From Pseudomonas phage PhiPA3, in sequence record HQ630627.1: a DNA stretch of 64,000 bases. One strand, 5' to 3'. This document shows positions 28,550 through 56,446 of the stretch, piece after piece; the stretch's first letter is position 1, and every line of letters begins with the position of its first letter. The translations under genes were made by a program, and so were the position numbers. The notes under the pieces were generated by a model. The model made no database searches. It had not been told where the DNA came from and was given only the letters and a program-made list of their open reading frames with translations.

Positions 28550-30337
28550 TTAGGCCAAAGGGGCCTCTTCCTCTTCTTGCTCTTCTTCAGCCTGCTCTTC
28601 TGCTTCTACCTCAGCTTCATCCACAACGGATTCTTCTTCAGTTTCAGCAGCTTCTTCCTCGGTCAGTGCACCGGCCTCGGCAACGCTGTCGTACGGATCG
28701 GCTTCAGTCTCTTCAACTTCATCGAACTCGTCTTCACCTTCCGCCATCGGTGGCAGACCATCGTCAGATTCCGGAACGGATTCAACGACGTCTTCATCTA
28801 CTTCAGCTTTCCCTTCTGCTTCTTCTTGGAAGAGAGGTTCAGCACCCGTTTCACTTTCGGCTTCAGCTTCCGGCAGTTTAGCATTCGGATCGACATCTGC
28901 TTCGAAGTCTTCTACCTTGATCTGTGCAGCTAGGAACAGAGCTACCAGCGAGATCAGACCTTGGGTATTCAGTTCACGAACAGAAGCATCCGGGAAGTGT
29001 TGACCGTATTCGTCGATCGCTTGCAGGTAATCCAGATACGTGGACTGCGGGAAGTACACTTTGCAGATCAGAGTAGCGAACACCGTGTAGGGGTTCTTGG
29101 TGTCTTCAATGCGAATGTAGCGCATGGCATCGGCCAGTACACCACGTAGGTTCGGGATAGCACGATCTTTCAGTGCAGTCTCGTTAACCTGCGACATGAA
29201 GGCAGCAACGATATCTTGACGGCGACTACGTTCGGCTGCATCGATAGCAGCTTGCTTGATCAGCGGGTAAGTGGCAACCCAACGATTGACCAGGTAATCG
29301 GATTTGGCTTCGATGGAAGCCACGGTGTCCAGACCAGTACCTTCGATAGCTGCACCCAGAATGGCTTGGATGTTGCCACCTTTAGCCAACCACTGAGGAG
29401 CTACGTCACCATTGATGATTACAACCACCTTACGGTTTTCGATGTACTTATCAGCGTCGTAACGCAGAACCAGCTGCTCACGCTCACGGGCTTCAATACG
29501 ACGAGCATAAGCACGCAATACATACGAACCCAGCATTTCGTGAAGCAGGCGAACAACGTTGTTCCATTCGTCCAGTGTTACCGATTCACCCGGAACAGTT
29601 TGCGGGTTTTCGATGTAGTGACCGCAGATGAAATACGCCATCAGCAGTTCATCAATATTGAACGGAGCATTGGCCAGACGCAGGAAGTCCAAGCTGGCTG
29701 GATTAACTACATGACCAGTACCGAACAGAGCCGTCCATACAGCTTCAATACGTTCAACCGGAATCTTCAGTGCCCATTCAGTAACCTGCTCTTGATCCAG
29801 GTGTGGGTTATTGACAGCCACCATCTCAATGATGGTTTCCGCCGACAGAGGCTTGAGCATGAAGGTACGGTATTCAGCCAGCGGGCGAACACGAGCGTAA
29901 CGATCATTGATGTGGTTAACCAGACGCGGATCGTTGTGGATAGGGTCGTAGTTGAAAGACTCTACACGGCAATCAGCTTGAGAGCTAGCACCCTGACGAC
30001 TGGCGTAATCATTGTGCATTGCGGTGATAGCCGGGATGATCACGTTTTGGGTATTGAACTGCACACGTGCAATTGCGGTGTGCAGGTTGGCGATCATGGC
30101 CTCACGTTCATCGTCAACCGATGCTGGAGTTTCCTGGTTGATTTCTTCGAAGTGGTCTTCTACCGATGCAGCCAGTTCATCAGACATTTCAACCTTGTTG
30201 GGTTGTTCGTCTACGTTCAGGCCATCAGCAAAGACACCCACCGGGGTATCCATGTTAGGGACAGTAAGAACTCGCCCATCGCGAGTGAAGGATTGGGCCG
30301 CATCACGTACCGCATCCATAGAGGTAATCTCGGACAT
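28550..30337 (-). CDS. hypothetical virion protein with extreme poly-acidic C-terminal tail (595 aa)
   Basis: ORF. The last 120 aa are almost purely E/D/A ('EEQAEEEQEEEEAPLA'). No beta' motifs such as a bridge helix or trigger loop. Confidence 0.6.
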   Translation of the reverse strand: MSEITSMDAVRDAAQSFTRDGRVLTVPNMDTPVGVFADGLNVDEQPNKVEMSDELAASVEDHFEEINQETPASVDDEREAMIANLHTAIARVQFNTQNVIIPAITAMHNDYASRQGASSQADCRVESFNYDPIHNDPRLVNHINDRYARVRPLAEYRTFMLKPLSAETIIEMVAVNNPHLDQEQVTEWALKIPVERIEAVWTALFGTGHVVNPASLDFLRLANAPFNIDELLMAYFICGHYIENPQTVPGESVTLDEWNNVVRLLHEMLGSYVLRAYARRIEAREREQLVLRYDADKYIENRKVVVIINGDVAPQWLAKGGNIQAILGAAIEGTGLDTVASIEAKSDYLVNRWVATYPLIKQAAIDAAERSRRQDIVAAFMSQVNETALKDRAIPNLRGVLADAMRYIRIEDTKNPYTVFATLICKVYFPQSTYLDYLQAIDEYGQHFPDASVRELNTQGLISLVALFLAAQIKVEDFEADVDPNAKLPEAEAESETGAEPLFQEEAEGKAEVDEDVVESVPESDDGLPPMAEGEDEFDEVEETEADPYDSVAEAGALTEEEAAETEEESVVDEAEVEAEEQAEEEQEEEEAPLA

Positions 30338-30346
30338 GATGTCTCC

Positions 30347-30589
30347 TTAAATACCCAGCAGTTTAGACACACGAGCTACCAGGGCAGCTTGGATATCCGG
30401 TTTAGTCAGAAACTCGCCTTCCAGTGTGGCGGCGTGAGAGTCAGAGCCCAGGGACCGAACGATAGCTTCGGCCCCCAGTTCAGCAACAGCGGTCAAAACT
30501 GCTACGTTCTGACCGTGTGCAACGTTACTACTTAGCTTTTGCATTTGTGGTTCCTCGATATACGCCTGCAATATGCTTGGACAATGCAC
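30347..30589 (-). CDS. RNAP beta-subunit C-terminal region I homolog encoded in a +1-shifted short ORF (65-80 aa)
   Basis: 'VAHGQNVAVLTAVAELGAEAIVRSLGSDSHAATLEG' parallels bacterial beta '[40 protein letters not shown]'. The frame stays open upstream to 30628 ('CLLNSFQPRAFCSVHCPSILQAY', compare '[23 protein letters not shown]'). Overlaps the 3' end of ORF 30528..31784 in another frame. Confidence 0.45.
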   Translation of the reverse strand: MHCPSILQAYIEEPQMQKLSSNVAHGQNVAVLTAVAELGAEAIVRSLGSDSHAATLEGEFLTKPDIQAALVARVSKLLGI

Positions 30590-31784
30590 GGAGCAAAATG
30601 CTCGTGGTTGAAATGAGTTTAGGAGACATTACCATCCGTTCCTCTACAGAAGTATTGCCGAAGATCAGATCAATCGGAGTACCGTCTTCCGTTTCGTTAC
30701 GACCTTCCATTACCCGAGAGATAACAGTTTTCATCTGGTTACCGAGTACACCTTTATCACCGACACCACAAGAGATGTCATGGTCGATATAGATGCGGAT
30801 AACCATGTGGTCTGGTTCAAGGATTTGACCTTTCACACGGAACGACGAATCCACTTCACCGGTAAACACCGGTTGATTCAGAGACTTCGCAATATCTGCA
30901 CGTTGTTTGTCAGAGGCGCGAGCGATCGCTTGCAGGTTCTCGGACATGTCTTCGATGTCACCATGATAGTAACATTCGATCTTCGACACAGTACCGACAA
31001 CTTTAGCACGCGGGGTGTGCGCAGCCAGTCGACGCAGCGTTTCAATAGCCGCATCGCCAAACAGCGTGTTCTCTGCGGTTTCGGGGTCTTCGATTATACA
31101 TAGAATTGAATTCAGGTCGACATGGTCTCCCCGCTTCACCAATTCTGAAACATGTTGATCAAAGCGAACAGTGATGTTCTTAATGTCGGTGGTCTGTGTT
31201 TGTAGGCGCACAGCCAGTTCTTTCGAAATGGTTGAGCCGTCCTCCAATGTATCGAGGTTATCACAGAAAGCCACCGTTGCCATACATCCAGCTTTCCACA
31301 ACACTTGGCCCGGAGCATAACGGTCCGCAGTGAAGTACTTACGGTTGTACGCGATCGTATCACCATGTTTGAACTTGTCACCTTTCTTCAGATCAGTTAC
31401 CAAGTCATGTGGATAGTTCACACCAGCAGCGGTGCCATGAACGATCCCCAGAGGCGAACTCACGATTTCTCCATCAGCGTATTTAACGGTAATGCCATGC
31501 TCGTCAACCGAGATAACTTCACCGTCTTGTTCAGCAGCAGTAGCGAAGATGGAACTGGTACGCTGTGCTACAATTTGCTCGTAGCCGGTACGCACTGGAG
31601 TTACTTCGTAACCATCAGCATAGATACCTTGCTGTTGCTGAATACTGATAAATCCGACGCGTTTCATCGAGATCTTCAGATAGTTCGTTAGACTATCCCG
31701 TGCGTTTAAGCACTGCTCTAGGCTTTCCCTAGATGTCGAGACTATATCTTCCCCTACGTGAGAGGCTTCCCATTTCGAGCCCAC
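30528..31784 (-). CDS. RNAP beta subunit, exon-2 portion (real coding sequence begins about 31644; the first 46 codons of the ORF are intron)
   Basis: 'SIQQQQGIYADGYEVTPVRTGYEQIVAQ' (compare 'NMQRQAVPL..KPLVGTGMERAVAV'). 'TVAFCDNLDTLEDGSTISKEL' (compare '[21 protein letters not shown]'). 'GDKGVLGNQMKTVISRV...EDGTPIDLIFGNTSVEERM' (compare 'GDKMAGRHGNKGVISKI...[20 protein letters not shown]'). Confidence 0.75.
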   Translation of the reverse strand: MGSKWEASHVGEDIVSTSRESLEQCLNARDSLTNYLKISMKRVGFISIQQQQGIYADGYEVTPVRTGYEQIVAQRTSSIFATAAEQDGEVISVDEHGITVKYADGEIVSSPLGIVHGTAAGVNYPHDLVTDLKKGDKFKHGDTIAYNRKYFTADRYAPGQVLWKAGCMATVAFCDNLDTLEDGSTISKELAVRLQTQTTDIKNITVRFDQHVSELVKRGDHVDLNSILCIIEDPETAENTLFGDAAIETLRRLAAHTPRAKVVGTVSKIECYYHGDIEDMSENLQAIARASDKQRADIAKSLNQPVFTGEVDSSFRVKGQILEPDHMVIRIYIDHDISCGVGDKGVLGNQMKTVISRVMEGRNETEDGTPIDLIFGNTSVEERMVMSPKLISTTSILLRALSKHIAGVYRGTTNAKAK

Positions 31785-32999
31785 TTGAGCCCTACACCGT
31801 GATAAGCGGTTAGTCGTTGAACCTTACCCATATCTTTCGACTTAGGGTCTTGGCTGCTGATTGTCCAATCTATCTCGTTTTCAAACCGTCAATACCTGCT
31901 TTCGCGGTACTTGTGGTGAGACAGCTCTAAGGACGTTCCAGCAATTAGAGAAGATACCATCTAGATATCGCTATCTAGTGGGACTGTATCTATTAAATCT
32001 TTGTAATAGCCATAGCGATAGCCATCACTATAAACTTTGTTACCTTTGGATTTCAAACGTTCATTTAACGTAGTGGGTTTTAAGAACATTGACGATGCGC
32101 ACATGTGTGGAGATTCGAAGGCAATCCTTCTACCATTTTCACCAATCAACAGCACGGGTTTCTTCCCAGCTAAAGCCATGTCAAGGTAAGGATCATCAAC
32201 TATTCGCCATTCATCGGTATCCCATCGAATCTGACGGAGACCAGGTATGATTGGTTGAGTTGGATCGTTTATCCATTGGCTAACAGTAGGTAATGCAAAC
32301 CCAATAAATCTAGCTGCATCTGTGAGACTGACGAATTCAGTAATTTCACCGGAAATGAGACACTTTATTAAAACTTTCCGATGATTTAGGTTAGCTTGAA
32401 TCTCTTTATCAATGTCAACTGGTATATACCAAGGTTTATCACTAATGCGTCGATACTGTCGTTTCTCGGGAAACACACGCTCCTGCCCGACTTTGACTCG
32501 GTATGAGATAGCGTCTTTCGATAAACCGTAATATCGACCGCAGTCAATGTAACTGGGGAAAGTGCGAACTTCCCCTGTGATAGAATCCCTGACTTCAATT
32601 GGAATACATTTATCAGAAATTCCAATCTCTCCAGCATGCTCAATATTGCGTTGAGCGGTTACCCATTCTAAGTTATCAAGGCGGTCATCGCCTTTTATGC
32701 CGTTTTTGTGATTCACCACCAGTTTAGTTATATCTGAATCAAAGGGAATGTAGACGAATGCTAGTAATCGATGTCGTCCCCATGTAAGAGTAACTCCATG
32801 ATCGTCCGTCAAACGTAGGTTAACGTAACCAGCTGGATTAACACTTCCCTCCATGAGAGAGCAAGTGTGAAAGCTGTATACATCCCCGTCCCTTGAAATA
32901 AGATATTTACTGTAACCAGGAATCGGCGAGAAATCCTTTAAGTTTATAGCCATGTCTATCCTCCAAAAACACTATAACATTGGAGTATAGACTTCACAA
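31645..32999 (-). mobile_element. Group I self-splicing intron (about 1.35 kb) carrying an HNH homing-endonuclease ORF; boundaries approximate to within a few nt
   Basis: Minus-strand RNA shows canonical core elements. P is 'AAUUGCUGG' (rc of 31938-31948). Q is 'CAGCAGCCAAGACCCUAAGUC' (rc of 31839-31859), near-identical to Tetrahymena Q. R is 'GGUUCAACGACUAACC' (rc of 31808-31823). S is 'AAGAUAUAGUCUCG' (rc of 31737-31750). The 5' exon ends in U and the intron ends in G before exon 2. It interrupts the invariant beta motif DDANRALMGANMQRQ. Confidence 0.75.
31961..32953 (-). CDS. HNH homing endonuclease (intron-encoded, 330 aa)
   Basis: SD 'GGAGGA' before ATG 32953. NUMOD-like N-terminus 'YSKYLISRDGDVYSF'. 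HNH motif 'VVNHKNGIKGDDRLDNLEWVTAQRNIEHA'. Lies wholly between the two halves of a split conserved beta motif. Confidence 0.85.
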   Translation of the reverse strand: MAINLKDFSPIPGYSKYLISRDGDVYSFHTCSLMEGSVNPAGYVNLRLTDDHGVTLTWGRHRLLAFVYIPFDSDITKLVVNHKNGIKGDDRLDNLEWVTAQRNIEHAGEIGISDKCIPIEVRDSITGEVRTFPSYIDCGRYYGLSKDAISYRVKVGQERVFPEKRQYRRISDKPWYIPVDIDKEIQANLNHRKVLIKCLISGEITEFVSLTDAARFIGFALPTVSQWINDPTQPIIPGLRQIRWDTDEWRIVDDPYLDMALAGKKPVLLIGENGRRIAFESPHMCASSMFLKPTTLNERLKSKGNKVYSDGYRYGYYKDLIDTVPLDSDI

Positions 33000-35900
33000 A
33001 CATTCAATAAACAATAACAATCATCGTTCATTGAACCTACGGCCAACAATGCTGACGTAGACAGCATCTTAGCGTGACCGTCTGTTTCTTTATCGAACAT
33101 GCGGGTCGTACCACGCATGCTGACAAAGTTAGCGTCAGGCGAGAGGTAAGCAATTACACCCACGTCACCGGAGTCTACTGTCGATTCCGAAACCACACCT
33201 ACGTCAGCTTCACCGTAGATACGAGTACGCGCCACCATCGATGTTGGACCATGGCCACCATCACCACGATAGGTCATGGCTTCTTGCTCTCGCAAGTTGG
33301 CGATCGGGTTGGAGTCTTCAATCGTTGCGACAGTCGGATCCTGAACAATCTTGCGCCAGATTTCGTGTTGGTCAAGAATGATCTGTTGATCAGCAGAACC
33401 TTCACGGTTGTTGTACACCTTAGCGGCTTGGTTCAGAGACTTGTAAATGGCCCCAGCCATGCGTTCATAGCCACGATAACGCATGTAAGCACCGTCGACC
33501 TCACCCGGAGACCAATCGTTCATCAGAAGCTCTACAGAACGATACAGCAATCCTTCGAAGTCCGTTGGCTCACCCATCTCCTCCAAAATACCTTTGGTGA
33601 TGGGATCCACCCAGGAATTAAACAGATGGGTAATCTCTTTGGCGTAGCGACTAGACAACCCAGCCTCTTCCAGAACACGGTAATACACGTCACGACGGTC
33701 GAAGTCATAACGAGAAAACTTCTTCAGTGATTGATGATACCGTTTAAAGCCAGCGAGCACGAGTTGTGCTTTGTAGTCCTGACGAGAGAACACAAGGATC
33801 TCATCAGCAAAGGCTAACGTGTAGTCGTCTTGGGAGACCTGAATGCGAGTACCGCGCTGGTGTTTATCGTACTTGACCCCCAGCTTGTTTAACAGATTGG
33901 TCAGACCACCATGGAACCCAAGGATGAATGCTAGTGGAATCTCTTTGTTAGAGACCGACATAACAATCGCTTCTAACGGTGCCTTGGTCAGATTCAGCCC
34001 AACCATGTCAACCAGTGTACCCATTGGTTCGAGATCATTGCCATCTTGCAAGTAGAAGTTACCTGCTTGATCTAACATGATAGGTTGACCTTCACGGACA
34101 CCTGTCATGACGTAACCATCTTTCTCGAACTGCGTTACATCCAGATGGAACTTCTCTCGGAAGTAATCTACACGGTCAGCGTACTTGAAGTACAACTGGT
34201 TCTTACCATTATCGAACGCTTGGAACGCACCACCCATTGCAGAATACACACGAGGCAATACGTAAGCTGATTGATCCAGCTCAGCGTAACGGACGTTGGT
34301 GATCGATTGATCATTGGGATCCAGAGCACGAGCGGTGATCTGACGAACCAACCACACATCGTAGTTGTTGACAGCCAATCCAGAACGAGACACGAAAGTC
34401 TTGTTATAGTAGCTGGTCAATGCCACTCGGGTTGGGTTAACTTTACGGATCGGTACGTCTGCCCGCTGCATCCGTTGGCGGTAGGTGACCCCATTAGAAC
34501 GGAAACGACCATCACGATCAATCACCGGAATGCGGAAACGCAATTGGCTAGAACGACCACGAATCGGCTTCACTGTCACAGTGAATGATTGGTAATGGTT
34601 CATGGCGTCTTGCACTTCTTCCATCTTGATATCGGTCACTGCGATACCTTGCTGTTGAATAGCCAGGACCGAGTTCATGATGTCTTTAGGTAGCAACGTC
34701 TTGTTGTACTTACGCACCATCGCCTTGTGTTTAGCACCGAGCATCGACTTATCGAGGATCGTCGTTTTGTCGGCGAACTTCACTTCAGGGATAGCGTAGT
34801 CTTCGGCTGCATACTGCATGGCTTCCGCAATCGTCTTACCTGAACCAAAGGGATCCGGCAGGGACTTATAGCTGCTAGCGTCTTCTACAGCCTGTTCGAA
34901 GGTACGGGGTGAGATCATACCCACCTGATACAATTCAAACGCTTTAGCCCCTACACCATCGACCAATGGATCATCAGTCTCAAAACGAGGCAGAGCGGAT
35001 TTGGTAGCCTTACCGTCAGAAACGTTAAGGGTCTTCTCAGCTTCTACTTCTTTGACCAGTGGTGCAGTTTCTAACGGATCTTTCTCAATAACCAGCGTCG
35101 TGATTTCGAGCTCAGACTCCGGAGGAGGATTGTAGGTGACTTCCATCAAACCCAGGTCAAGTGTTTTCACAATCGACGAATCGTCTTTACTGGAGTCATC
35201 CACTACATCACCTACGTCAACGTCTTCAGCCTCTTCTTGAGGCTCAACGTCATCAGTGGGTTCAATGTCTTCATCTTCCGATACCACATCAGTGGGTTCT
35301 TCCAACGCGGTGGGGCTAATCGCTACATCACTACTGTCCTGTTCAACCAGAGTATCATTACCATGGTTGTATTCCACCAGCGTGGTCAGCAAGCTCAGGA
35401 TACGGCGTTGCATCACGTCTGGGGTATAGACGACTTCCAGACCCAGTTCGTCGACGTACGACTCTTGAGCAACAGTGAGCTGTTCTTCTTCAAACTCAGG
35501 AGACTTCCGCCATTCTTCCAGTAGACCCAGATTGATCACAAAGAACGAACCTTGTGCACGGATCAGGAAGTTGATCTTCTCGTAAGCTTCACGTGGCAGA
35601 ACAGACATGAACGAAGTTTCACGACTGTTACCAAAGAAGCGGTACAGATCAAAGATGTTCAATACCGCCGGCGTGCGGAACTTCTCCAGCAGGGCTTGAG
35701 TTTGACCTTTGGAGAACTGGACAAATTCTGAATACAACGGAATCGATTCTGGAATATGGATCTCGATGAACTGGTTCCAACCGAACCGTTTATGTGCATC
35801 TACCACGCCATCCCAGAAGGTAGCGGTGTTATTGACCCATCGATACCATCCAGCTTTATAGTTAGCTTGGTACTTATAAAGGTCATTGAGCATGTTGTAG

Positions 35901-36262
35901 TTGAACACTGCTACGTTTTGCAGGTTAAGCTTAACAGCCTCGTCTTTGCGCAGTGGTTTGAAGAAACGATGTTGACGACGGAACTCTTGTTCGAGTGTGG
36001 TCGCAATAACGCTGGTACGCCGTGCGTTACCATCAAGTGTCTTCAGTTCCAACTTGTGTTCAATGAACGACTTCCCCATCAACCGCGCAAAGATGGGATC
36101 CGATTGACTCGGACCCCGAACAGCGTAGTTGTCGTCGAAGAACTGGTAAACAGTCTCCAAAGGAAGCTCAAGTTTCTTGACGGCATGAAGTCTCGGCTTC
36201 TGCAACTCACTAGCCTGCTTGAGGCCATAGTTCTTAAGAAACTGTGCTATTTTTAAGCGCAT
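32972..36262 (-). CDS. RNAP beta subunit, exon-1 portion (N-terminal and middle regions; real exon ends about 33000, the last 9 codons are intron)
   Basis: 'KEIPLAFILGFHGG' (compare beta 'IPIxxLLRALG'). C-terminal 'YRGDGGHGPTSMVARTRIYGEADVGVVSESTVDSGDVGVIAYLSPDANF' (compare '[51 protein letters not shown]'). Ends '...LLAVGSMNDDCYCLLN' (compare 'SLIPFLEHDDANRALM'), then diverges. Confidence 0.75.
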   Translation of the reverse strand: MRLKIAQFLKNYGLKQASELQKPRLHAVKKLELPLETVYQFFDDNYAVRGPSQSDPIFARLMGKSFIEHKLELKTLDGNARRTSVIATTLEQEFRRQHRFFKPLRKDEAVKLNLQNVAVFNYNMLNDLYKYQANYKAGWYRWVNNTATFWDGVVDAHKRFGWNQFIEIHIPESIPLYSEFVQFSKGQTQALLEKFRTPAVLNIFDLYRFFGNSRETSFMSVLPREAYEKINFLIRAQGSFFVINLGLLEEWRKSPEFEEEQLTVAQESYVDELGLEVVYTPDVMQRRILSLLTTLVEYNHGNDTLVEQDSSDVAISPTALEEPTDVVSEDEDIEPTDDVEPQEEAEDVDVGDVVDDSSKDDSSIVKTLDLGLMEVTYNPPPESELEITTLVIEKDPLETAPLVKEVEAEKTLNVSDGKATKSALPRFETDDPLVDGVGAKAFELYQVGMISPRTFEQAVEDASSYKSLPDPFGSGKTIAEAMQYAAEDYAIPEVKFADKTTILDKSMLGAKHKAMVRKYNKTLLPKDIMNSVLAIQQQGIAVTDIKMEEVQDAMNHYQSFTVTVKPIRGRSSQLRFRIPVIDRDGRFRSNGVTYRQRMQRADVPIRKVNPTRVALTSYYNKTFVSRSGLAVNNYDVWLVRQITARALDPNDQSITNVRYAELDQSAYVLPRVYSAMGGAFQAFDNGKNQLYFKYADRVDYFREKFHLDVTQFEKDGYVMTGVREGQPIMLDQAGNFYLQDGNDLEPMGTLVDMVGLNLTKAPLEAIVMSVSNKEIPLAFILGFHGGLTNLLNKLGVKYDKHQRGTRIQVSQDDYTLAFADEILVFSRQDYKAQLVLAGFKRYHQSLKKFSRYDFDRRDVYYRVLEEAGLSSRYAKEITHLFNSWVDPITKGILEEMGEPTDFEGLLYRSVELLMNDWSPGEVDGAYMRYRGYERMAGAIYKSLNQAAKVYNNREGSADQQIILDQHEIWRKIVQDPTVATIEDSNPIANLREQEAMTYRGDGGHGPTSMVARTRIYGEADVGVVSESTVDSGDVGVIAYLSPDANFVSMRGTTRMFDKETDGHAKMLSTSALLAVGSMNDDCYCLLNVCEVYTPML

Positions 36263-36267
36263 GGTTT

Positions 36268-37920
36268 TTAGTCTCTAGCGACTGGATCACCAGTCATGTA
36301 CCTGAGGGTGAGGTTCAGCGTGTGAATGTTGATACTAAACGCCAAGCCACCACCAGCTTTGATGTAAGCCAAACGAGATTTGAAGAACTTATCGGATTCC
36401 TCGATTGCCTCTTTGGAGTACACGGCATTAAACGATACCGTGTCACCATCGAAGTCGGCAGTGAGTGGAGCCAGGACCGCTGGCGATACCGACGTAGAGT
36501 CGTGCCACTGCGCAATTTCGTTGAGTTCAAAGACGGGGTATTCGATAGCTGGTTGTGCGGTTAGATCCCTCTCCCAGTTGTAATCCAATGGATAACGCAT
36601 CTCACCTTTTACAGTGGTCTTAACGTACATCTTCATCGGGATCGAACTGTTGTAGTTCTCTACTGGATAGCGGGTAACGAATGCGGAATTCTTGTACCAC
36701 ATAGGTAAACCAGCGAGGTAAACCAACTCGGAATAAGTAATCGGACGAACGAACTTCTTGTGACGATCTTTCGGTAGATCTTCAATGTCACGGAAGATCT
36801 TGTAGTTCTGTTGATCATCCAAATAAACCAGTGCTAGATAGTGATCAGCAATCTCAATCGGCCGACTACGTTGGTCAATAACCTTGAGTTCGTTAATGAC
36901 TCGCTCAAGCCCTTCTGGCGTACCCCAAGTATCGAGGTCTTCAGCAGTGATGTCAACCCATTCCCGTTTGAGCGTCTTCTTATTAACCAATTCAACGCGG
37001 TTAGAGATACTGTCAAAGATCTCACCGACCACTGAATTCCGCAGATGGAAGATCGTCTTGGGTTTAACAGAGACGGCGCCTTGATACAGACCTACCACCG
37101 CATCTTTAAAGCGTGGTCGGTTGGGCGCATCCAGATCCGCAGCGTTAGTATCCAATGAAGAGATCACGTTACGCGTACCGTTTTGTACACGACGGGAAGC
37201 CCACTTGGATTGGATGTAGCCGCCCTTACCAGAAATCAACCGTTCAAAATGACCATAGATCTCCAGTACTGTGTTCTGCATGGCAACACGTTTACGGTCG
37301 TAGATACTCAGGTCGTCGTTAGGACCAAAGAACTCAGGCACACCAAATGACTGGTTGAGTAGATAACGATATTTTTCGTTGATCTCATCCATCGATACTC
37401 GACCGTCAGCGTCGATCTCAGCTTCACGGTAAGCGGCTGGAACAACCAACACATCTTGCATGATACACCGATCTTTGTACTTCTCGATCAGCTGAAGACG
37501 GTTCAGACGGATACCGGATTTGGTACCCCCGAATTCAATCTTACGCCAGTTGTTAAAGAAGAATGTATAACCGGTTTGACCTTCGAGTTCATTAGACCGA
37601 GCGAAATCTCTCCCTATTGGATCGAACACAGCAAAGGCTTTACCCAGGATGATTTCTTCGTAGAATGCCCTGAGTTTGATTAAGTTTCGGTAGATTACTG
37701 GGTGGATAATATCAAGTCCTAAGTGGATGTAACCGAAGTTGCCTTCACGTTGCTTAGAGCCAACTCGCCCGAAGATCTCCACCGAGAACAAACCTTTCTC
37801 ATGGAAGTTACCACCGGTACCTTCAAAGATCTCATGACTGGTGACTTGTCCCACGCGTAGCAACTGAGCCTTGGTAGGGATCAGTAGATCAATGTTAAAT
37901 GGGACTAACGCTTTCCTCAT
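36268..37920 (-). CDS. RNAP beta' subunit, N-terminal fragment (550 aa) with catalytic Mg-binding motif
   Basis: 'TADFDGDTVSFNAVYSKEAIEE' (compare beta' '[23 protein letters not shown]') near the C-terminus, as expected for a split beta' N-terminal subunit. SD 'AAGAGGAAAG' before ATG 37920. Confidence 0.8.
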   Translation of the reverse strand: MRKALVPFNIDLLIPTKAQLLRVGQVTSHEIFEGTGGNFHEKGLFSVEIFGRVGSKQREGNFGYIHLGLDIIHPVIYRNLIKLRAFYEEIILGKAFAVFDPIGRDFARSNELEGQTGYTFFFNNWRKIEFGGTKSGIRLNRLQLIEKYKDRCIMQDVLVVPAAYREAEIDADGRVSMDEINEKYRYLLNQSFGVPEFFGPNDDLSIYDRKRVAMQNTVLEIYGHFERLISGKGGYIQSKWASRRVQNGTRNVISSLDTNAADLDAPNRPRFKDAVVGLYQGAVSVKPKTIFHLRNSVVGEIFDSISNRVELVNKKTLKREWVDITAEDLDTWGTPEGLERVINELKVIDQRSRPIEIADHYLALVYLDDQQNYKIFRDIEDLPKDRHKKFVRPITYSELVYLAGLPMWYKNSAFVTRYPVENYNSSIPMKMYVKTTVKGEMRYPLDYNWERDLTAQPAIEYPVFELNEIAQWHDSTSVSPAVLAPLTADFDGDTVSFNAVYSKEAIEESDKFFKSRLAYIKAGGGLAFSINIHTLNLTLRYMTGDPVARD

Positions 37921-53652: not shown

Positions 53653-54012
53653 ATGATCAACTGGATCCGACGACACTATAAACGTAGACGCTGTAGTCGT
53701 GGTGAATTAATAGCTATTAATGAGTTGATACTCAAGGCAGCTCGACGACAGAATTATGACCTAGCTCACCTGATCTCTTACCTTGGTGATGGTAATGACC
53801 CAGTTGTACTAGACCAGATCAGAAATGAATTCTATAGTTTGTACCATCATTACAGATCGGTGTTTGATCCAGCTGACTTCGGTAAAAACTATCGAACCAA
53901 GTTAGGTCAGAACCTTATGGAAGCTGATCTAAAGATCGGTCAGTTTAAAGAACTGTGCGACAAGCATGGCATTGATTATTCCCACATTGTAGCAAACGAT
54001 ATTCCGTTCTAA
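53653..54012 (+). CDS. hypothetical basic protein (about 119 aa)
   Basis: ATG 53653 with 'AAGGAGAA' RBS. The track's longer ORF would overlap terminator 53575-53596. Confidence 0.4.
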   Translation: MINWIRRHYKRRRCSRGELIAINELILKAARRQNYDLAHLISYLGDGNDPVVLDQIRNEFYSLYHHYRSVFDPADFGKNYRTKLGQNLMEADLKIGQFKELCDKHGIDYSHIVANDIPF

Positions 54013-54021
54013 GGACACCCC

Positions 54022-54384
54022 ATGGATTTCCAAACTCTGTTTGAATTGTTCTTCCTTTTACTCGTTGGTCACGCTGTCTGTGATTACGCTTTACAAAACG
54101 ATTTCATGGCTATGGCCAAGAATCACACTACCGAATTGGGTAAGATATACTGGAAGTTCGTTTTGCCATCACATGGATTAATCCATGGGGGTTGGGTGTA
54201 TTTTGCTACAGGTTCAATTGCTTTTGGTGTACTGGAAACCATCATCCATTGCATCACCGATTACTTGAAGTGTGGTAATAAAATCAGCTTCAATACAGAT
54301 CAATGGATTCACATTGCTTGTAAAGTTCTTTGGGTTATCTTGGTTGGATTCCAGTTCGACTTCCTCGATTTGCTTCTTTTCTGA
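54022..54384 (+). CDS. hypothetical multi-pass membrane protein (120 aa)
   Basis: Hydrophobic segments 'LFELFFLLLVGHAV', 'WVYFATGSIAFGVL', 'VLWVILVGFQF'. Confidence 0.5.
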   Translation: MDFQTLFELFFLLLVGHAVCDYALQNDFMAMAKNHTTELGKIYWKFVLPSHGLIHGGWVYFATGSIAFGVLETIIHCITDYLKCGNKISFNTDQWIHIACKVLWVILVGFQFDFLDLLLF

Positions 54385-54389
54385 CTACG

Positions 54390-54415
54390 GCCTCCCCTCG
54401 GGGAGGCTCTATGCC
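54390..54415 (+). terminator. hairpin (GCCTCCC-CTCG-GGGAGGC) plus TCTATGCC
   Basis: After the membrane-protein gene. Confidence 0.5.
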
Positions 54416-54423
54416 GCTATTCT

Positions 54424-54945
54424 ATGAATCAACGGCACTTTGGGGGACACATGCCTCTTACCTGTACCAAAGTCCCAGAGATAGACCAATTTGTAACCGA
54501 AGGGAAGCATATCGGCTATTTCGGAAAAGAGGACAATATAACCGACCTGCCGTCTGTGATTGGCGATTGGAATATCCGAGCGATCTATGATCGGGTGAAC
54601 CCCACAACAGGATACATCGTTGCGGTTCCTTCGAATACACGTACCCGCGTTATTTATAATACTGGGCGTGCAAATTGGCTGCAATCACTCGGCTACACTA
54701 GTAAACAGGCTGACTTGTATATCAGGGCGAGCACTATCGTGAATGGTCGTTGGGACCATCGCGTTGCTGAATTTGTACTGAAACATTTCCACATGGACGA
54801 TTACGTCATTGAGGAAGTAATACAGAGCGATCGCCCTAAGAAAGTTTGCCAAGAAAACAACATTAATACCAAACTCTCAGCGCGTAAGATTTTGACAGCC
54901 TGTCAGATACTTTACAACATGCGCTTTACTCTGGTAGGGGCCTAG
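54424..54945 (+). CDS. hypothetical protein (173 aa)
   Basis: ORF track. Hairpin 54937-54950 follows. Confidence 0.5.
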   Translation: MNQRHFGGHMPLTCTKVPEIDQFVTEGKHIGYFGKEDNITDLPSVIGDWNIRAIYDRVNPTTGYIVAVPSNTRTRVIYNTGRANWLQSLGYTSKQADLYIRASTIVNGRWDHRVAEFVLKHFHMDDYVIEEVIQSDRPKKVCQENNINTKLSARKILTACQILYNMRFTLVGA

Positions 54946-54960
54946 GCCCCTATTTATTTC
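54937..54960 (+). terminator. short hairpin (GGGGCC-TA-GGCCCC) plus TATTTATTTC
   Basis: After the 173-aa gene. Confidence 0.4.
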
Positions 54961-55004
54961 GTCGTACGCTATTCTATGACTTTAAATCGTAAAGGTTTGA
55001 CCCT

Positions 55005-55439: not shown

Positions 55440-55513
55440 AGCCTCTCGAATAGATAACGTCTAGACCGAATATATCTGGAACATTAAATGTTACCGTCTG
55501 TGGACTATTAAAA

Positions 55514-56185
55514 ATGTCTGTTTATGAGCAAATGACCAACCAACCAGATCGCAAGTGCAGATCTGAAACACTACTGCGCTTACTGATCTCCACAAGTTAC
55601 CCCCATGCAACATTAGCCGATCTCACCTTTGCTTTCTCCAATCATAGCGGTCAGAAAGATCTTGATGAACTAGAGAAGATTGCTATACAGATGAAGGACG
55701 TTGAGCGATCCTTCGATATGTTTGACTTCATTCGATGCATCGAGCTTAAACGCCAGGGTGAGCAAATTCAAATCCAGGTTAAACGTCTGGACTTTGATCC
55801 GACTATGCGTACGCTGGAAGACAGTTCCGATACACATGAAGCAATGGCAACCAGTTCAGTTCATCTGACCGATGAACGAGTGAATCTTGCCGATGTCGAT
55901 GTACTAGCTACCCGCTTGCTTGAAATTTTCTATCGTTCTCAAGTTAAAGTGAAGAAGAAAGGGAACGAGATTGCAACTACGGTTTGGAAGAGTCGAACCA
56001 AGCATATTGATCGCCGTAATCCGAAAGCAGAGACAAAAGTTGTAGAAGCTGAATTGGATTTCCAAGCAGCTATTGAAATGATCTCCACGTCTCTTCGCAA
56101 GCGCCGCTTCCACATCCTGTTGACACAGAATACAATTCTACTACTGGATCAGAAGAGCCGCATTTGGGGTGTGTCCAAAGCGTGA
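55514..56185 (+). CDS. hypothetical protein (223 aa)
   Basis: ORF track. Confidence 0.5.
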   Translation: MSVYEQMTNQPDRKCRSETLLRLLISTSYPHATLADLTFAFSNHSGQKDLDELEKIAIQMKDVERSFDMFDFIRCIELKRQGEQIQIQVKRLDFDPTMRTLEDSSDTHEAMATSSVHLTDERVNLADVDVLATRLLEIFYRSQVKVKKKGNEIATTVWKSRTKHIDRRNPKAETKVVEAELDFQAAIEMISTSLRKRRFHILLTQNTILLLDQKSRIWGVSKA

Positions 56186-56358
56186 GTTAAAAACTTACAC
56201 TTTCCCCAATGATATAGCCAAGGCAGTACGCGTAAGCGCTGCACATTAAGGGGGTGATCCAGCCAATACTTAACCTGATACGTTAAGGCATTTGCGGGAG
56301 CAAAAGCGAGTATCTAACTACGGCGCCTTGGACTAGCTTGGAGCATCGATTCAAGCGG

Positions 56359-56391
56359 CATAACAGCCCAGCTTCGGCTGGGCTTTATGTC
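56359..56391 (+). terminator. module GCATAAC-[GCCCAGC-TTCG-GCTGGGC]-TTTATGTC
   Basis: Inside the 260-bp non-coding region upstream of the helicase. Confidence 0.5.
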
Positions 56392-56446
56392 GTCTTACTC
56401 GGGAGCCAATCTTATGACTTTCTAAAATCCTGACGGAATCACTCAC

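What the first reader, a model, noticed from the sequence alone, without database searches (positions are those of the whole stretch)
31645..33000. Group I intron with an HNH homing endonuclease splits the phage RNAP beta gene inside its invariant 'DDANRALMGANMQRQ' motif
The 1096-aa ORF ends with '...LLAVGSMNDDCYCLLN', which matches bacterial beta '...SLIPFLEHDDANRALM'. It then diverges for 9 codons to a stop. The motif continues ('SIQQQQGIYADGYEVTPVRTGYEQIVAQ' against 'NMQRQAVPL..KPLVGTGMERAVAV') at codon 47 of the downstream 418-aa ORF. Between the two halves lie a free-standing HNH ORF and about 310 nt carrying textbook group I core elements: P AAUUGCUGG, Q CAGCAGCCAAGACCCUAAGUC, R GGUUCAACGACUAACC, S AAGAUAUAGUCUCG. 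The 5' exon ends in U and the last intron base before exon 2 is G. The first 46 codons of the 418-aa ORF (MGSKWEASHVGEDIV...) are intron sequence that happens to be open; they overlap the S element. My splice model joins ...CLLN-V-IQQQQG..., but I could not find a convincing P1/IGS pairing, so the 5' junction is uncertain by a few nt.
Basis: partly seen in the sequence, partly recalled or inferred. Interest (0 to 1): 0.8.

Follow-up and report, generated by a model that had tools for sequence, protein, structure and literature searches.

The report
Known ΦPA3 RNA polymerase mobile intron

Summary
Rfam finds one group I intron in the 64-kb window, at 31716-32004 (-), 67.8 bits, E 4.8e-15. It lies between two halves of an RNA polymerase β gene, next to an HNH ORF.

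Exact protein look-ups show the window is Pseudomonas phage PhiPA3: gp211, gp210 and gp209. This element was published by Birkholz et al., Science 2024 (PMC11620839). gp210 is an intron-encoded HNH nicking homing endonuclease, inserted right after two conserved Asp residues of the vRNAP β subunit. It nicks ΦKZ gp178 and gives ΦPA3 a competitive advantage.

Exon 1 ends at 33020 (…MNDD), the intron is 33019..31668 (1352 nt), and exon 2 starts at 31667 (MKRVGFISIQQQQ…). CYCLLN is intron sequence. The first 39 codons of the 418-aa ORF are intron, not 46.

The ORF therefore sits in the loop of an extended P1 hairpin and is not free-standing.

Group I introns occupy this site in six other jumbo phages, one of them offset by 3 nt. 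Splicing of the ΦPA3 intron has not been shown at the RNA level; support comes from the homologous 201φ2-1 intron.

Novelty: already known. Interest: low.

The parts
33020..36262 (-). Exon 1 of the virion RNAP β gene (true coding part of ΦPA3 gp211; 1081 codons, ends ...SMNDD, last base U33020)
   Evidence: tblastn of the intronless PA1C β protein, residues 1-1074, ends at 33020. The 1096-aa ORF is AEH03634.1, PhiPA3. Its last 15 residues are intron-encoded.
31668..33019 (-). Group I intron, 1352 nt (starts UGUUAUUG..., ends ...GAUCUCG; terminal G = G31668)
   Evidence: Boundaries come from homology with one intronless and six intron-containing orthologues and from the exact match of the deposited 201phi2-1 spliced protein to this junction model.
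32994..33022 (-). P1 5' strand: exon G33022-A-U33020, intron U33019-G-U33017, a 4-nt bulge (33016-33013), then a helix extension (33012 to about 32994)
   Evidence: MFE fold with the ORF replaced by GAAA. The homologous pairing is seen in 201phi2-1, phiRU, 2050HW, C-ZP2022 and HPP-Temi.
32955..32992 (-). Hairpin that encloses the gp210 Shine-Dalgarno (GGAGG, 32964-32960; AUG at 32953)
   Evidence: MFE -14.8 kcal/mol, z = -2.78, 1 of 200 shuffles as stable. The equivalent hairpin in 2050HW has different stem sequence and z = -3.55. C-ZP2022 has none.
31961..32953 (-). gp210: HNH nicking homing endonuclease, 330 aa, catalytic His82 in VVNHKNG; located in the terminal loop of P1
   Evidence: Exact match to AEH03633.1 / YP_009217289.1, PhiPA3. 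Pfam HNH_3 29.5 bits, cut-off 24.8. I-HmuI (1U3E) E 3.3e-8. Nicking and the H82R mutant were shown experimentally in PMC11620839.
31982..32006 (-). P1 3' strand with the internal guide sequence ACAGUC (31987-31982; G31984 pairs with U33020); overlaps the last codons of gp210
   Evidence: This element sits directly 5' of P2 in all introns at this site. C-ZP2022 shows a compensatory change (exon GACGAU, guide GUCGUC).
31961..31978 (-). P2 hairpin CUAGAUA-GCGA-UAUCUAG (7 bp, GNRA tetraloop); its 3' strand contains the gp210 stop codon UAG (31963-31961)
   Evidence: Read directly from the sequence. MFE folds of ΦPA3 and 201phi2-1 give the same hairpin; HPP-Temi, 2050HW and phiRU fold a different-sequence hairpin at this position, and the C-ZP2022 construct shows none.
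31716..32004 (-). Catalytic core (P2-P9) matched by Rfam Intron_gpI. P 31946-31938, Q 31859-31839, R 31823-31808, S 31750-31737. A 36-nt insert between P7 and P3' is read as P7.1/P7.2.
   Evidence: cmscan 67.8 bits, gathering score 50, E 4.8e-15, full-length model match 1-253. Element coordinates.
31668..31715 (-). 3' tail after P9: two small hairpins (GUGC-UUAAAC-GCAC; GAUAGU-CUAACGA-ACUAUC) and UGAAGAUCUCG ending in the terminal G31668
   Evidence: The 3' ends of all seven introns align: hairpin, then UGAAGA-N(3-5)-G, then the exon. The spacing is 10-12 nt in six of them, which favours G31668 over G31665.
30528..31667 (-). Exon 2 of the β gene (= ΦPA3 gp209 as deposited, 379 aa + stop; starts AUG AAA CGC = MKR...)
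   Evidence: PA1C residues 1076-1453 align from 31664. MKRVGF...AKAK is AEH03632.1, PhiPA3. The spliced product aligns colinearly with Thermus β across the junction.

Best explanation
The window is part of Pseudomonas jumbo phage ΦPA3. Its virion RNA polymerase β-subunit gene (homologue of ΦKZ gp178) is interrupted by a 1352-nt mobile group I intron (33019..31668, minus strand). The insertion is directly after the second Asp codon of the conserved DD(A/P/M)(N/K)R... motif.

Inferred from sequence and homologues:
- The ribozyme folds with an unusually long P1 hairpin.
- The last three exon bases and the first three intron bases (GAU|UGU) pair with the guide element ACAGUC at 31987-31982, giving a U33020·G31984 wobble at the splice site. 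A helix of about 19 bp extends this pairing.
- The gp210 ORF sits in the terminal loop of that hairpin.
- Guanosine-initiated self-splicing would join ...GAU GAU to AUG AAA CGC. The product is a 1460-aa β subunit reading ...SMNDD-MKRVGFISIQQQQ...

Shown experimentally by others for this exact protein:
- gp210 is an I-HmuI-like HNH enzyme. [quoted passage not shown]
- This promotes homing and interference competition between co-infecting phages.

Weaker inference:
- The gp210 ribosome-binding site lies in a hairpin, and the ORF's last ~15 codons overlap the guide sequence and P2.
- Translation of gp210 and folding of a splicing-competent P1/P2 on the same RNA molecule are therefore probably mutually exclusive.
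For: Identity:
- The exact protein sequences of the three products are PhiPA3 gp211, gp210 and gp209.

Intron:
- RF00028 hit above the gathering score, the only Rfam hit in the window.

Junction:
- Intronless PA1C orthologue.
- Same site in 201phi2-1, HPP-Temi, 2050HW, C-ZP2022 and phiRU, with stop codons right after GAU GAU in three of them.
- The deposited 201phi2-1 spliced protein equals the ...DD|MKR... model, and the alternative ...DDC|KR... is absent from the collection.
- That 201φ2-1 junction is backed by proteomics and two spliced ONT reads (PMC11512511).
- The Science supplement notes 15 surplus residues in annotated gp211.
- The spliced product aligns colinearly with Thermus β HDDANRALMGSNMQTQ.

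P1:
- MFE folds recover the same pairing in 5 of 6 introns.
- A blind scan ranks it first in three introns and tied second in one.
- C-ZP2022 has a compensatory change (GACGAU with GUCGUC), and BONAISHI pairs GACGGU with GCCGUC.

Endonuclease:
- Pfam HNH_3 and homology to I-HmuI 1U3E.
- Published nicking assays, the H82R mutant and ΦKZ escape mutants at D1072.

Foreign origin of the ORF:
- 41.5% GC against 48-49% in the exons.
- ORF-less but otherwise homologous introns in 201phi2-1 and HPP-Temi.
Against: - No RNA-level demonstration of splicing for ΦPA3 itself was found. The Science paper calls the intron 'putative', and neither its main text nor its supplement mentions RT-PCR, cDNA or a secondary structure.
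- In ΦPA3 the contiguous P1 is only 6 bp (3 exon + 3 intron). In the blind scan it is outranked by chance matches inside the 1-kb ORF. The assignment therefore rests on positional homology and on the helix extension.
- No convincing P10 pairing with the 3' exon was found.
- Exon 2 begins with AUG, so separate translation of gp209 cannot be excluded from sequence alone.
Confidence: 0.9

Rival explanations
1. Split subunit without splicing. The intron core is an inactive relic, and the β subunit works as two separately translated polypeptides: gp211 (with 15 extra C-terminal residues) and gp209 (initiated at AUG 31667). ΦKZ-type RNAPs already have β and β' split into separate polypeptides.
For: - Exon 2 starts with AUG in ΦPA3 and 201phi2-1 and was deposited as a separate CDS.
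- ΦKZ-type RNAP genes are naturally split (PMC7598289).
- No direct splicing data exist for ΦPA3.
Against: - The core matches the full RF00028 model above the gathering score. It is retained in ORF-less versions at 70-87 bits, which argues for selection on splicing.
- The break lies inside an invariant catalytic-cleft motif that is uninterrupted in about 280 of 290 phage homologues.
- HPP-Temi and 2050HW have CCG/CCA (Pro) rather than AUG at the start of exon 2, so no start codon is available there.
- The 201φ2-1 spliced product is supported by proteomics and two spliced reads.
Confidence: 0.05
2. Exon 1 runs through ...DDCYCLLN, splicing removes 33000..31645, and exon 2 resumes at ...(V)IQQQQG.
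For: U and G are present at the proposed boundaries, and there is a superficial resemblance of DDCYCLLN to DDANRALM (the finding; sequence).
Against: - PA1C and all other orthologues read DD-x-KR(V/I)(G/N)F(I/V)SIQQQQ, with a single residue between DD and KR.
- KRVGFIS, which the model discards, is conserved exon sequence.
- In HPP-Temi, 2050HW and phiRU the frame hits a stop directly after GAU GAU.
- The 201phi2-1 deposited protein fixes the junction.
- Only the DD|MKR junction gives a colinear alignment with Thermus β.
Confidence: 0.01
3. A free-standing HNH gene plus a small (~340 nt) intron. The endonuclease gene lies outside the intron, between two cistrons, and only 32010..31668 is removed.
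For: - ORF-less introns of 336-348 nt exist at this site in 201phi2-1 and HPP-Temi.
- The ORF has its own Shine-Dalgarno.
- The Rfam match begins only at 32004.
Against: - Exon homology stops at 33020, upstream of the ORF.
- The first ~30 nt after 33020 are homologous to the 5' end of the ORF-less 201phi2-1 intron. They pair with the sequence after the ORF to form P1.
- Removing only 32010..31668 would leave about 1 kb of foreign sequence with stop codons in the β reading frame.
Confidence: 0.02

Closest known systems
ΦPA3 gp210 mobile intron in the vRNAP β gene gp211/gp209 (Birkholz et al., Science 2024; PMC11620839)
   Same: It is the same locus. The protein sequences are identical. The insertion point after the two conserved Asp is the same, as are the catalytic His82 and the conclusion that annotated gp211 carries 15 surplus residues.
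   Different: Nothing differs biologically. That paper treats the RNA part as a 'putative' group I intron inferred from a protein alignment. What is added here:
- the covariance-model hit;
- nucleotide-exact boundaries;
- the P1/guide pairing located after the ORF;
- the placement of the ORF in the P1 loop;
- the list of other phages with this site occupied.
201φ2-1 gp273/274 intron (GenBank NC_010821; ONT-cappable-seq paper PMC11512511)
   Same: Same gene, same insertion point, same AUG as first exon-2 codon. The core is about 85% identical. The P1 3' strand is identical and P2 differs at two compensating positions. Rfam score 87.4 bits.
   Different: It has no endonuclease ORF: 336 nt, with a ~45-nt loop where ΦPA3 carries gp210. 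It does have some direct evidence of splicing, from proteomics and two reads.
Serratia phage 2050HW / Haymo, Pectobacterium phage ParM-25 and Vibrio phage C-ZP2022 β-gene introns
   Same: Same layout (β exon 1, HNH ORF, core, β exon 2) at the same DD|xKR site. The HNH is 43% (2050HW group) or 38% (C-ZP2022) identical to gp210, and the 2050HW-group core is 73% identical.
   Different: - The hosts and phage genera are different.
- Exon 2 starts with Pro or Ala codons.
- The 2050HW ORF stops about 10 codons earlier, inside the P1 3' strand rather than in P2.
- The C-ZP2022 core scores below Rfam's gathering score.
- In the records examined (2050HW, C-ZP2022) the two halves are annotated as separate genes.
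Bacillus phage SPO1/SP82 DNA polymerase group I intron with I-HmuI (PDB 1U3E)
   Same: A phage group I intron in an essential polymerase gene that encodes an HNH endonuclease which nicks one strand of the intronless allele. gp210 is a sequence homologue (E 3.3e-8). PMC11620839 cites it as the paradigm.
   Different: - The host gene differs (DNA polymerase).
- gp210 is about twice as long (330 aa against 174 aa).
- From general knowledge, not tested here: the I-HmuI ORF occupies a different peripheral loop.
ΦKZ RNAP-gene introns and endonucleases (gp56, gp72, gp179; gp55, gp180), as listed in PMC11512511
   Same: Group I introns and HNH endonucleases that interrupt multisubunit RNAP genes of the same phage family. 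gp210 shows weak similarity to PHIKZ072 (25% identity). The intron core shows 68-70% similarity to several ΦKZ-group introns.
   Different: Their insertion sites and genes are different. ΦKZ gp178 itself is intronless at this site and is the target of gp210.

Membership tests
Group I catalytic intron (Rfam RF00028) | Conserved P3-P9 core scoring above the curated covariance-model threshold | tested here: met
   67.8 bits against a gathering score of 50, E 4.8e-15, model positions 1-253 of 253. The P/Q/R/S elements align to the consensus.
Group I catalytic intron (Rfam RF00028) | P1 helix in which the last exon base U forms a U·G wobble with an internal guide sequence | tested here: met
   U33020·G31984 lies within GAU|UGU / ACAGUC plus a ~19-bp extension. 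The pairing is positionally conserved in 6 introns, with a compensatory change in C-ZP2022. Caveat: only 6 contiguous bp in ΦPA3, and not the top hit in a blind scan of the full intron.
Group I catalytic intron (Rfam RF00028) | Terminal G as the last intron nucleotide | tested here: met
   G31668 directly precedes AUG AAA CGC. A G is at the equivalent position in all seven introns.
Group I catalytic intron (Rfam RF00028) | P10 pairing between the guide sequence and the start of the 3' exon | tested here: inconclusive
   No convincing complementarity between AUGAAA and the bases 5' of G31984 was seen by inspection. P10 is weak in many introns (general knowledge).
Group I catalytic intron (Rfam RF00028) | Guanosine-dependent self-splicing in vitro or exon ligation in vivo | not testable with these tools
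   No RNA data for ΦPA3 were found. The homologous 201φ2-1 intron has proteomic support and two spliced reads.
Subgroup IA group I introns (typical of phages) | Extra P7.1/P7.2 hairpins between P7 and P3' | tested here: inconclusive
   A 36-nt insert (ACCGCUUAUCACGGU...GCUCAAGUGGGC) sits at that position in the Rfam alignment, and two small hairpins can be drawn in it. No subgroup-specific model was run.
HNH homing endonucleases of the I-HmuI type | HNH catalytic motif above the Pfam threshold, and homology to I-HmuI | tested here: met
   PF13392 HNH_3 29.5 bits, cut-off 24.8, residues 77-103. 1U3E E 3.3e-8 over residues 9-108.
HNH homing endonucleases of the I-HmuI type | C-terminal NUMOD-type DNA-binding modules | tested here: inconclusive
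   NUMOD1 20.7 bits (cut-off 22.8) and I-HmuI_NUMOD-like 16.5 bits (cut-off 27). Both are below threshold.
HNH homing endonucleases of the I-HmuI type | Site-specific nicking of the intronless allele at or near the insertion site | not testable with these tools
   Shown experimentally for this exact protein in PMC11620839: plasmid nicking, the H82R dead mutant, and ΦKZ escapers at D1072.
Chimalliviridae virion RNAP β subunit (ΦKZ gp178 family) | Full-length colinear homology to intronless orthologues and to the bacterial β catalytic-cleft motif across the junction | tested here: met
   PA1C 71% and 81% identity over the two exons. Thermus β alignment spans the junction. Synteny with gp175-gp180 homologues in 201phi2-1 and PA1C.

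The most novel reading that the evidence does not exclude
ΦPA3 forms a phage nucleus that separates transcription from translation. The anatomy found here shows three things. The gp210 start codon and Shine-Dalgarno are buried in local and long-range helices. The ORF sits in the P1 loop. Its last ~15 codons overlap the guide sequence and P2. This could mean that splicing and endonuclease expression are alternative fates of the same RNA. Precursors that fold and splice in the nucleus would yield β mRNA plus an excised intron whose ORF is structurally masked. Only unspliced or misfolded molecules exported to ribosomes would yield gp210, and ribosomes translating them would then block P1/P2. That would make the intron a built-in regulator of the dose of a self-toxic nuclease, not just a passenger. 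The Science supplement reports a 10-fold ΦPA3 fitness cost when gp210 is expressed in trans. Nothing here tests this idea directly.
Probability: 0.15. Interest if true: 0.45.

Novelty: already known. Interest (0 to 1): 0.15.

Why it matters
The element matters biologically. It is the first case in which an intron-encoded homing endonuclease was shown to give its host virus a competitive advantage (Birkholz et al. 2024). That is published work on this same phage, so the finding adds no new biology.

This re-analysis adds three incremental points:
- Nucleotide-exact intron boundaries and an RNA secondary-structure model, with the guide sequence downstream of the ORF.
- Evidence that the GenBank records still annotate gp211 with 15 intron-encoded residues and gp209 as a separate gene.
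- A list of six further jumbo phages, on Pseudomonas, Serratia and Vibrio hosts, in which the same DD|xKR site is occupied. Two further phages (Serratia Haymo, Pectobacterium ParM-25) carry the same HNH+core pair. In the HPP-Temi, 2050HW, BONAISHI and C-ZP2022 records the two halves are annotated as two 'RNA polymerase beta subunit' genes or hypothetical proteins.

Tried and rejected
- Local P1. I first looked for the guide sequence in the first ~30 nt of the intron. GUUAUUG at +2..+8 is perfectly complementary to the exon CGAUGAU, but it leaves a 1-nt loop, so it cannot be P1. A second copy at +9..+15 needs a bulge or a U·U at the splice site. I rejected both in favour of the downstream ACAGUC element once phiRU and 201phi2-1 showed contiguous helices across the splice site.
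- Alternative junction. Exon 1 ending GAU GAU UGU with the intron ending ...CGAUG (x = Cys) also satisfies the U/G rule. I rejected it for three reasons. The deposited 201phi2-1 protein has Met. Three homologues have a stop codon there. The 3' tail spacing would be 14 nt instead of 10-12 nt.
- Blind scan for the best U·G-centred helix. It does not single out the proposed guide sequence in the two longest introns, and I report this as a weakness.
- ORF-clamping inverted repeat (32960-32940 / 32037-32017). I looked for a conserved counterpart in 2050HW and C-ZP2022 and found none.
- Other features in the window. A search for gp210 paralogues, further introns or tRNAs found none.
- Literature. 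A search for RNA-seq or proteomic evidence of the ΦPA3 junction found none. It turned up only a different ΦPA3 intron, at genome coordinates ~55.0-55.5 kb, in PMC10449902.
- Megablast of the locus against the phage collection gave no hit above 77% identity, so ΦPA3 itself appears to be absent from that collection. Identity had to be established by exact protein look-up.

Full report
**Observation**

- A 1096-aa ORF (32972-36262) ends ...LLAVGSMNDDCYCLLNVCEVYTPML.
- A 330-aa ORF lies at 31961-32953.
- A 418-aa ORF (30528-31784) begins MGSKWEASHVGEDIV..., with SIQQQQ at codon 47.
- The quoted P, Q, R and S strings are at 31946-31938, 31859-31839, 31823-31808 and 31750-31737.

A scan of the whole window against Rfam gives a single hit: Intron_gpI at 31716-32004 (-), 67.8 bits against a gathering score of 50, E 4.8e-15, covering the full model. 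Nothing else appears even at E<=0.1.

**Identity of the locus**

Megablast of 30400-36400 finds only ΦKZ-like Pseudomonas jumbo phages, at no more than 77% identity. The syntenic gene in 201phi2-1 and PA1C is the virion RNA polymerase β subunit, the ΦKZ gp178 homologue.

Exact-sequence look-ups settle the identity.
- The 330-aa ORF is AEH03633.1 / YP_009217289.1, 'putative endonuclease [Pseudomonas phage PhiPA3]'.
- The 1096-aa ORF is AEH03634.1.
- The product that starts at MKRVGF... is AEH03632.1, protein 209.

The window is therefore ΦPA3, and the three ORFs are gp211, gp210 and gp209.

**What is already published**

Birkholz et al., Science 2024 (PMC11620839) describe this element.
[quoted passage not shown] - Purified gp210 nicks plasmids carrying the intronless ΦPA3 gp211/209 sequence or ΦKZ gp178, and the H82R mutant is inactive.
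- ΦKZ escape mutants map to D1072, at the homologous site.
- The endonuclease gives ΦPA3 a competitive advantage.

The window's ORF has His82 in VVNHKNG. The paper's supplement states that the GenBank annotation of gp211 contains 15 extra residues. Neither the main text nor the supplement mentions RT-PCR, cDNA, Rfam or a secondary structure. The RNA side was inferred from a protein alignment.

**Splice junctions**

The intronless PA1C orthologue (1453 aa) aligns with residues 1-1074 ending at window 33020 (...MNDD) and residues 1076-1453 starting at 31664 (KRVGFISIQQQQ...). One residue, Pro in PA1C, lies in between.

Six other phages have the gene interrupted at the same place: 201phi2-1, HPP-Temi, Serratia 2050HW, Vibrio C-ZP2022, Pseudomonas phiRU and Vibrio BONAISHI. 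In HPP-Temi, 2050HW and phiRU the codon after GAU GAU is UGA or UAA, so the 5' splice site must lie right after the second Asp codon.

At the 3' side, all the introns end with a hairpin, then UGAAGA-N(3-5)-G, then one codon (AUG, CCG, CCA, GCG or GUC), then AAA/AAG CGN.

For ΦPA3 and 201phi2-1 a second formal option exists: exon 1 ...GAU GAU UGU, giving x = Cys. I built both candidate 201phi2-1 products. The ...HDD|MKRIGF... version is exactly YP_001956996.1, and the Cys version is not in the collection. That annotation rests on proteomics, and two ONT reads 'exactly matching' it were later reported (PMC11512511).

Conclusion for ΦPA3:
- Exon 1 is 36262..33020.
- The intron is 33019..31668 (1352 nt, from UGUUAUUG... 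to ...GAUCUCG).
- Exon 2 is 31667..30528.
- The spliced product is 1460 aa.

The spliced product aligns colinearly with Thermus β across the junction: NDDMKRVGFISIQQQQ against HDDANRALMGSNMQTQ, E 3.5e-5.

CYCLLN is intron and MKRVGFI is exon. 39 codons of the 418-aa ORF are intron, not 46.

**RNA anatomy**

The ORF-less 201phi2-1 intron shares both ends with the ΦPA3 intron. The first ~30 nt after the 5' splice site are homologous, and so is a block starting ACAAAGAUUUAAUAGAUACAGUCCCACUAG, which in ΦPA3 lies at the 3' end of the gp210 ORF.

In phiRU the exon/intron sequence GAU|UGAG pairs contiguously with CUCAGUC. The same (A)GUCC element sits directly 5' of P2 in every intron.

In ΦPA3 the pairing is as follows:
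- G33022-A-U33020|U33019-G-U33017 pairs with A31987-C-A-G31984-U-C31982, giving a U33020·G31984 wobble.
- A 4-nt bulge follows.
- Then 33012 to about 32994 pairs with about 32006-31988.

Unconstrained MFE folding of the 5' domain, with ORFs replaced by GAAA, recovers this P1 in ΦPA3, 201phi2-1, 2050HW, C-ZP2022 and phiRU. HPP-Temi folds 3 nt out of register on the GAUGAU repeat. C-ZP2022 provides a compensatory change (exon GACGAU, guide GUCGUC). BONAISHI, whose junction is shifted by one codon, pairs GACGGU with GCCGUC.

A blind scan of every G in each full intron gave mixed results. The site ranks first in HPP-Temi, C-ZP2022 and phiRU and tied second in 201phi2-1. It is not among the top hits in the two longest introns, ΦPA3 and 2050HW. 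For ΦPA3 the assignment therefore rests on positional homology plus the long extension. I found no convincing P10.

P2 is CUAGAUA-GCGA-UAUCUAG (31978-31961). Its 3' strand contains the gp210 stop codon. The ORF thus sits in the terminal loop of an extended P1, and its last ~15 codons overlap the guide sequence and P2.

A 36-nt insert between P7 and P3' in the Rfam alignment suggests P7.1/P7.2 and hence a subgroup IA intron. No subgroup-specific model was run.

**The endonuclease**

- gp210 passes Pfam HNH_3 (29.5 bits, cut-off 24.8). NUMOD matches are below threshold.
- It is homologous to I-HmuI, PDB 1U3E (E 3.3e-8).
- Its closest relatives are the equivalent ORFs in the Serratia/Pectobacterium phages (43% identity) and Vibrio phage C-ZP2022 (38%), in the same position of the same gene.
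- Its GC content is 41.5% against 48-49% in the exons.

**Distribution**

A 200-aa probe across the junction hits 290 phage records. In 281 of them a single place covers at least 80% of the probe, and most of these are one uninterrupted piece. The inserts in 201phi2-1, 2050HW and HPP-Temi score 87.4, 82.6 and 70.5 bits on RF00028. Those in phiRU, C-ZP2022 and BONAISHI score 38-40 bits, below the gathering score, with E<=1e-6.

**Rival explanations**

- *Split β without splicing.* Exon 2 starts with AUG and was deposited as a separate gene, so this reading is possible on paper. Several results argue against it. The core is intact and retained in ORF-less introns. HPP-Temi and 2050HW have no start codon at that position. 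The 201φ2-1 data support splicing. The break lies in an invariant motif. I give it about 5%.
- *Free-standing HNH gene plus a short intron.* Exon homology ends upstream of the ORF, and P1 encloses the ORF. I reject this reading.

**Verdict**

The finding is real and was correctly classified. It is a previously published element of a well-studied phage, so it is already known and of low interest. The useful corrections are the exact boundaries, the location of P1 and its guide sequence, and the fact that the ORF is intron-internal. The one substantive gap is that splicing of the ΦPA3 intron has not been shown at the RNA level.

Noticed in passing
window 32955-32992 (-); L004:2944-2971: The Shine-Dalgarno of gp210 (GGAGG, 32964-32960) is enclosed in a hairpin: -14.8 kcal/mol, z = -2.78, 1 of 200 shuffles as stable. 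The homologous ORF in Serratia phage 2050HW has an equivalent SD-enclosing hairpin with different stem sequence (z = -3.55). C-ZP2022 has none. This suggests translational masking of the endonuclease.
   Followed up: partly
window 32940-32960 and 32017-32037 (-): A 21-nt inverted repeat (18/21 Watson-Crick plus 1 G·U) pairs the gp210 start-codon region (GAUAGACAUGGCUAUAAACUU) with a segment ~55 nt before the ORF's stop codon, looping out ~900 nt of ORF. It is the best such pair in the intron, and 1 of 200 shuffles reaches it. It is not conserved in 2050HW or C-ZP2022, so its significance is unclear.
   Followed up: partly
L005 (Vibrio phage BONAISHI MH595538) 1801-2318: The intron in the BONAISHI β gene appears to be inserted one codon further downstream (GAC GAC GGU| ... 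UAUUG|AAA CGU) than in the other six phages. Its candidate guide sequence GCCGUC matches that shifted exon end. The core scores only 37.9 bits on RF00028.
   Followed up: partly
L003 (HPP-Temi PP968062), L004 (2050HW NC_048668), L005 (BONAISHI), L007 (C-ZP2022 OM319461); window 32972-33019 and 31667: Public annotations of this gene are inconsistent. Several records list the two exons as separate 'RNA polymerase beta subunit' or hypothetical genes with no intron feature. ΦPA3 gp211 still carries 15 intron-encoded residues, and gp209 is annotated as a separate protein that starts at the first exon-2 codon.
   Followed up: yes
window 31665-31667; L001:4922-4924: The single residue between DD and KR is Met (AUG) in ΦPA3 and 201phi2-1. 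It is Pro in intronless PA1C and in the intron-containing HPP-Temi and 2050HW, Ala in C-ZP2022, Val in phiRU and Gly in BONAISHI. It is unknown whether the AUG is a by-product of intron-exon co-evolution or allows back-up initiation of exon 2.
   Followed up: partly
window 28550-30337 (-): The 595-aa ORF downstream of the β gene (ΦKZ gp177 homologue by synteny) ends in a very acidic, low-complexity tail of about 100 residues (…EEEAAETEEESVVDEAEVEAEEQAEEEQEEEEAPLA).
   Followed up: no
outside the window (ΦPA3 genome ~55.0-55.5 kb): PMC10449902 reports a second ΦPA3 intron, joining ORFs 53811-55004 and 55455-56444 into one RNAP-related protein. ΦPA3 therefore has at least two interrupted RNAP-type genes. 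Only one intron lies in this window.
   Followed up: no
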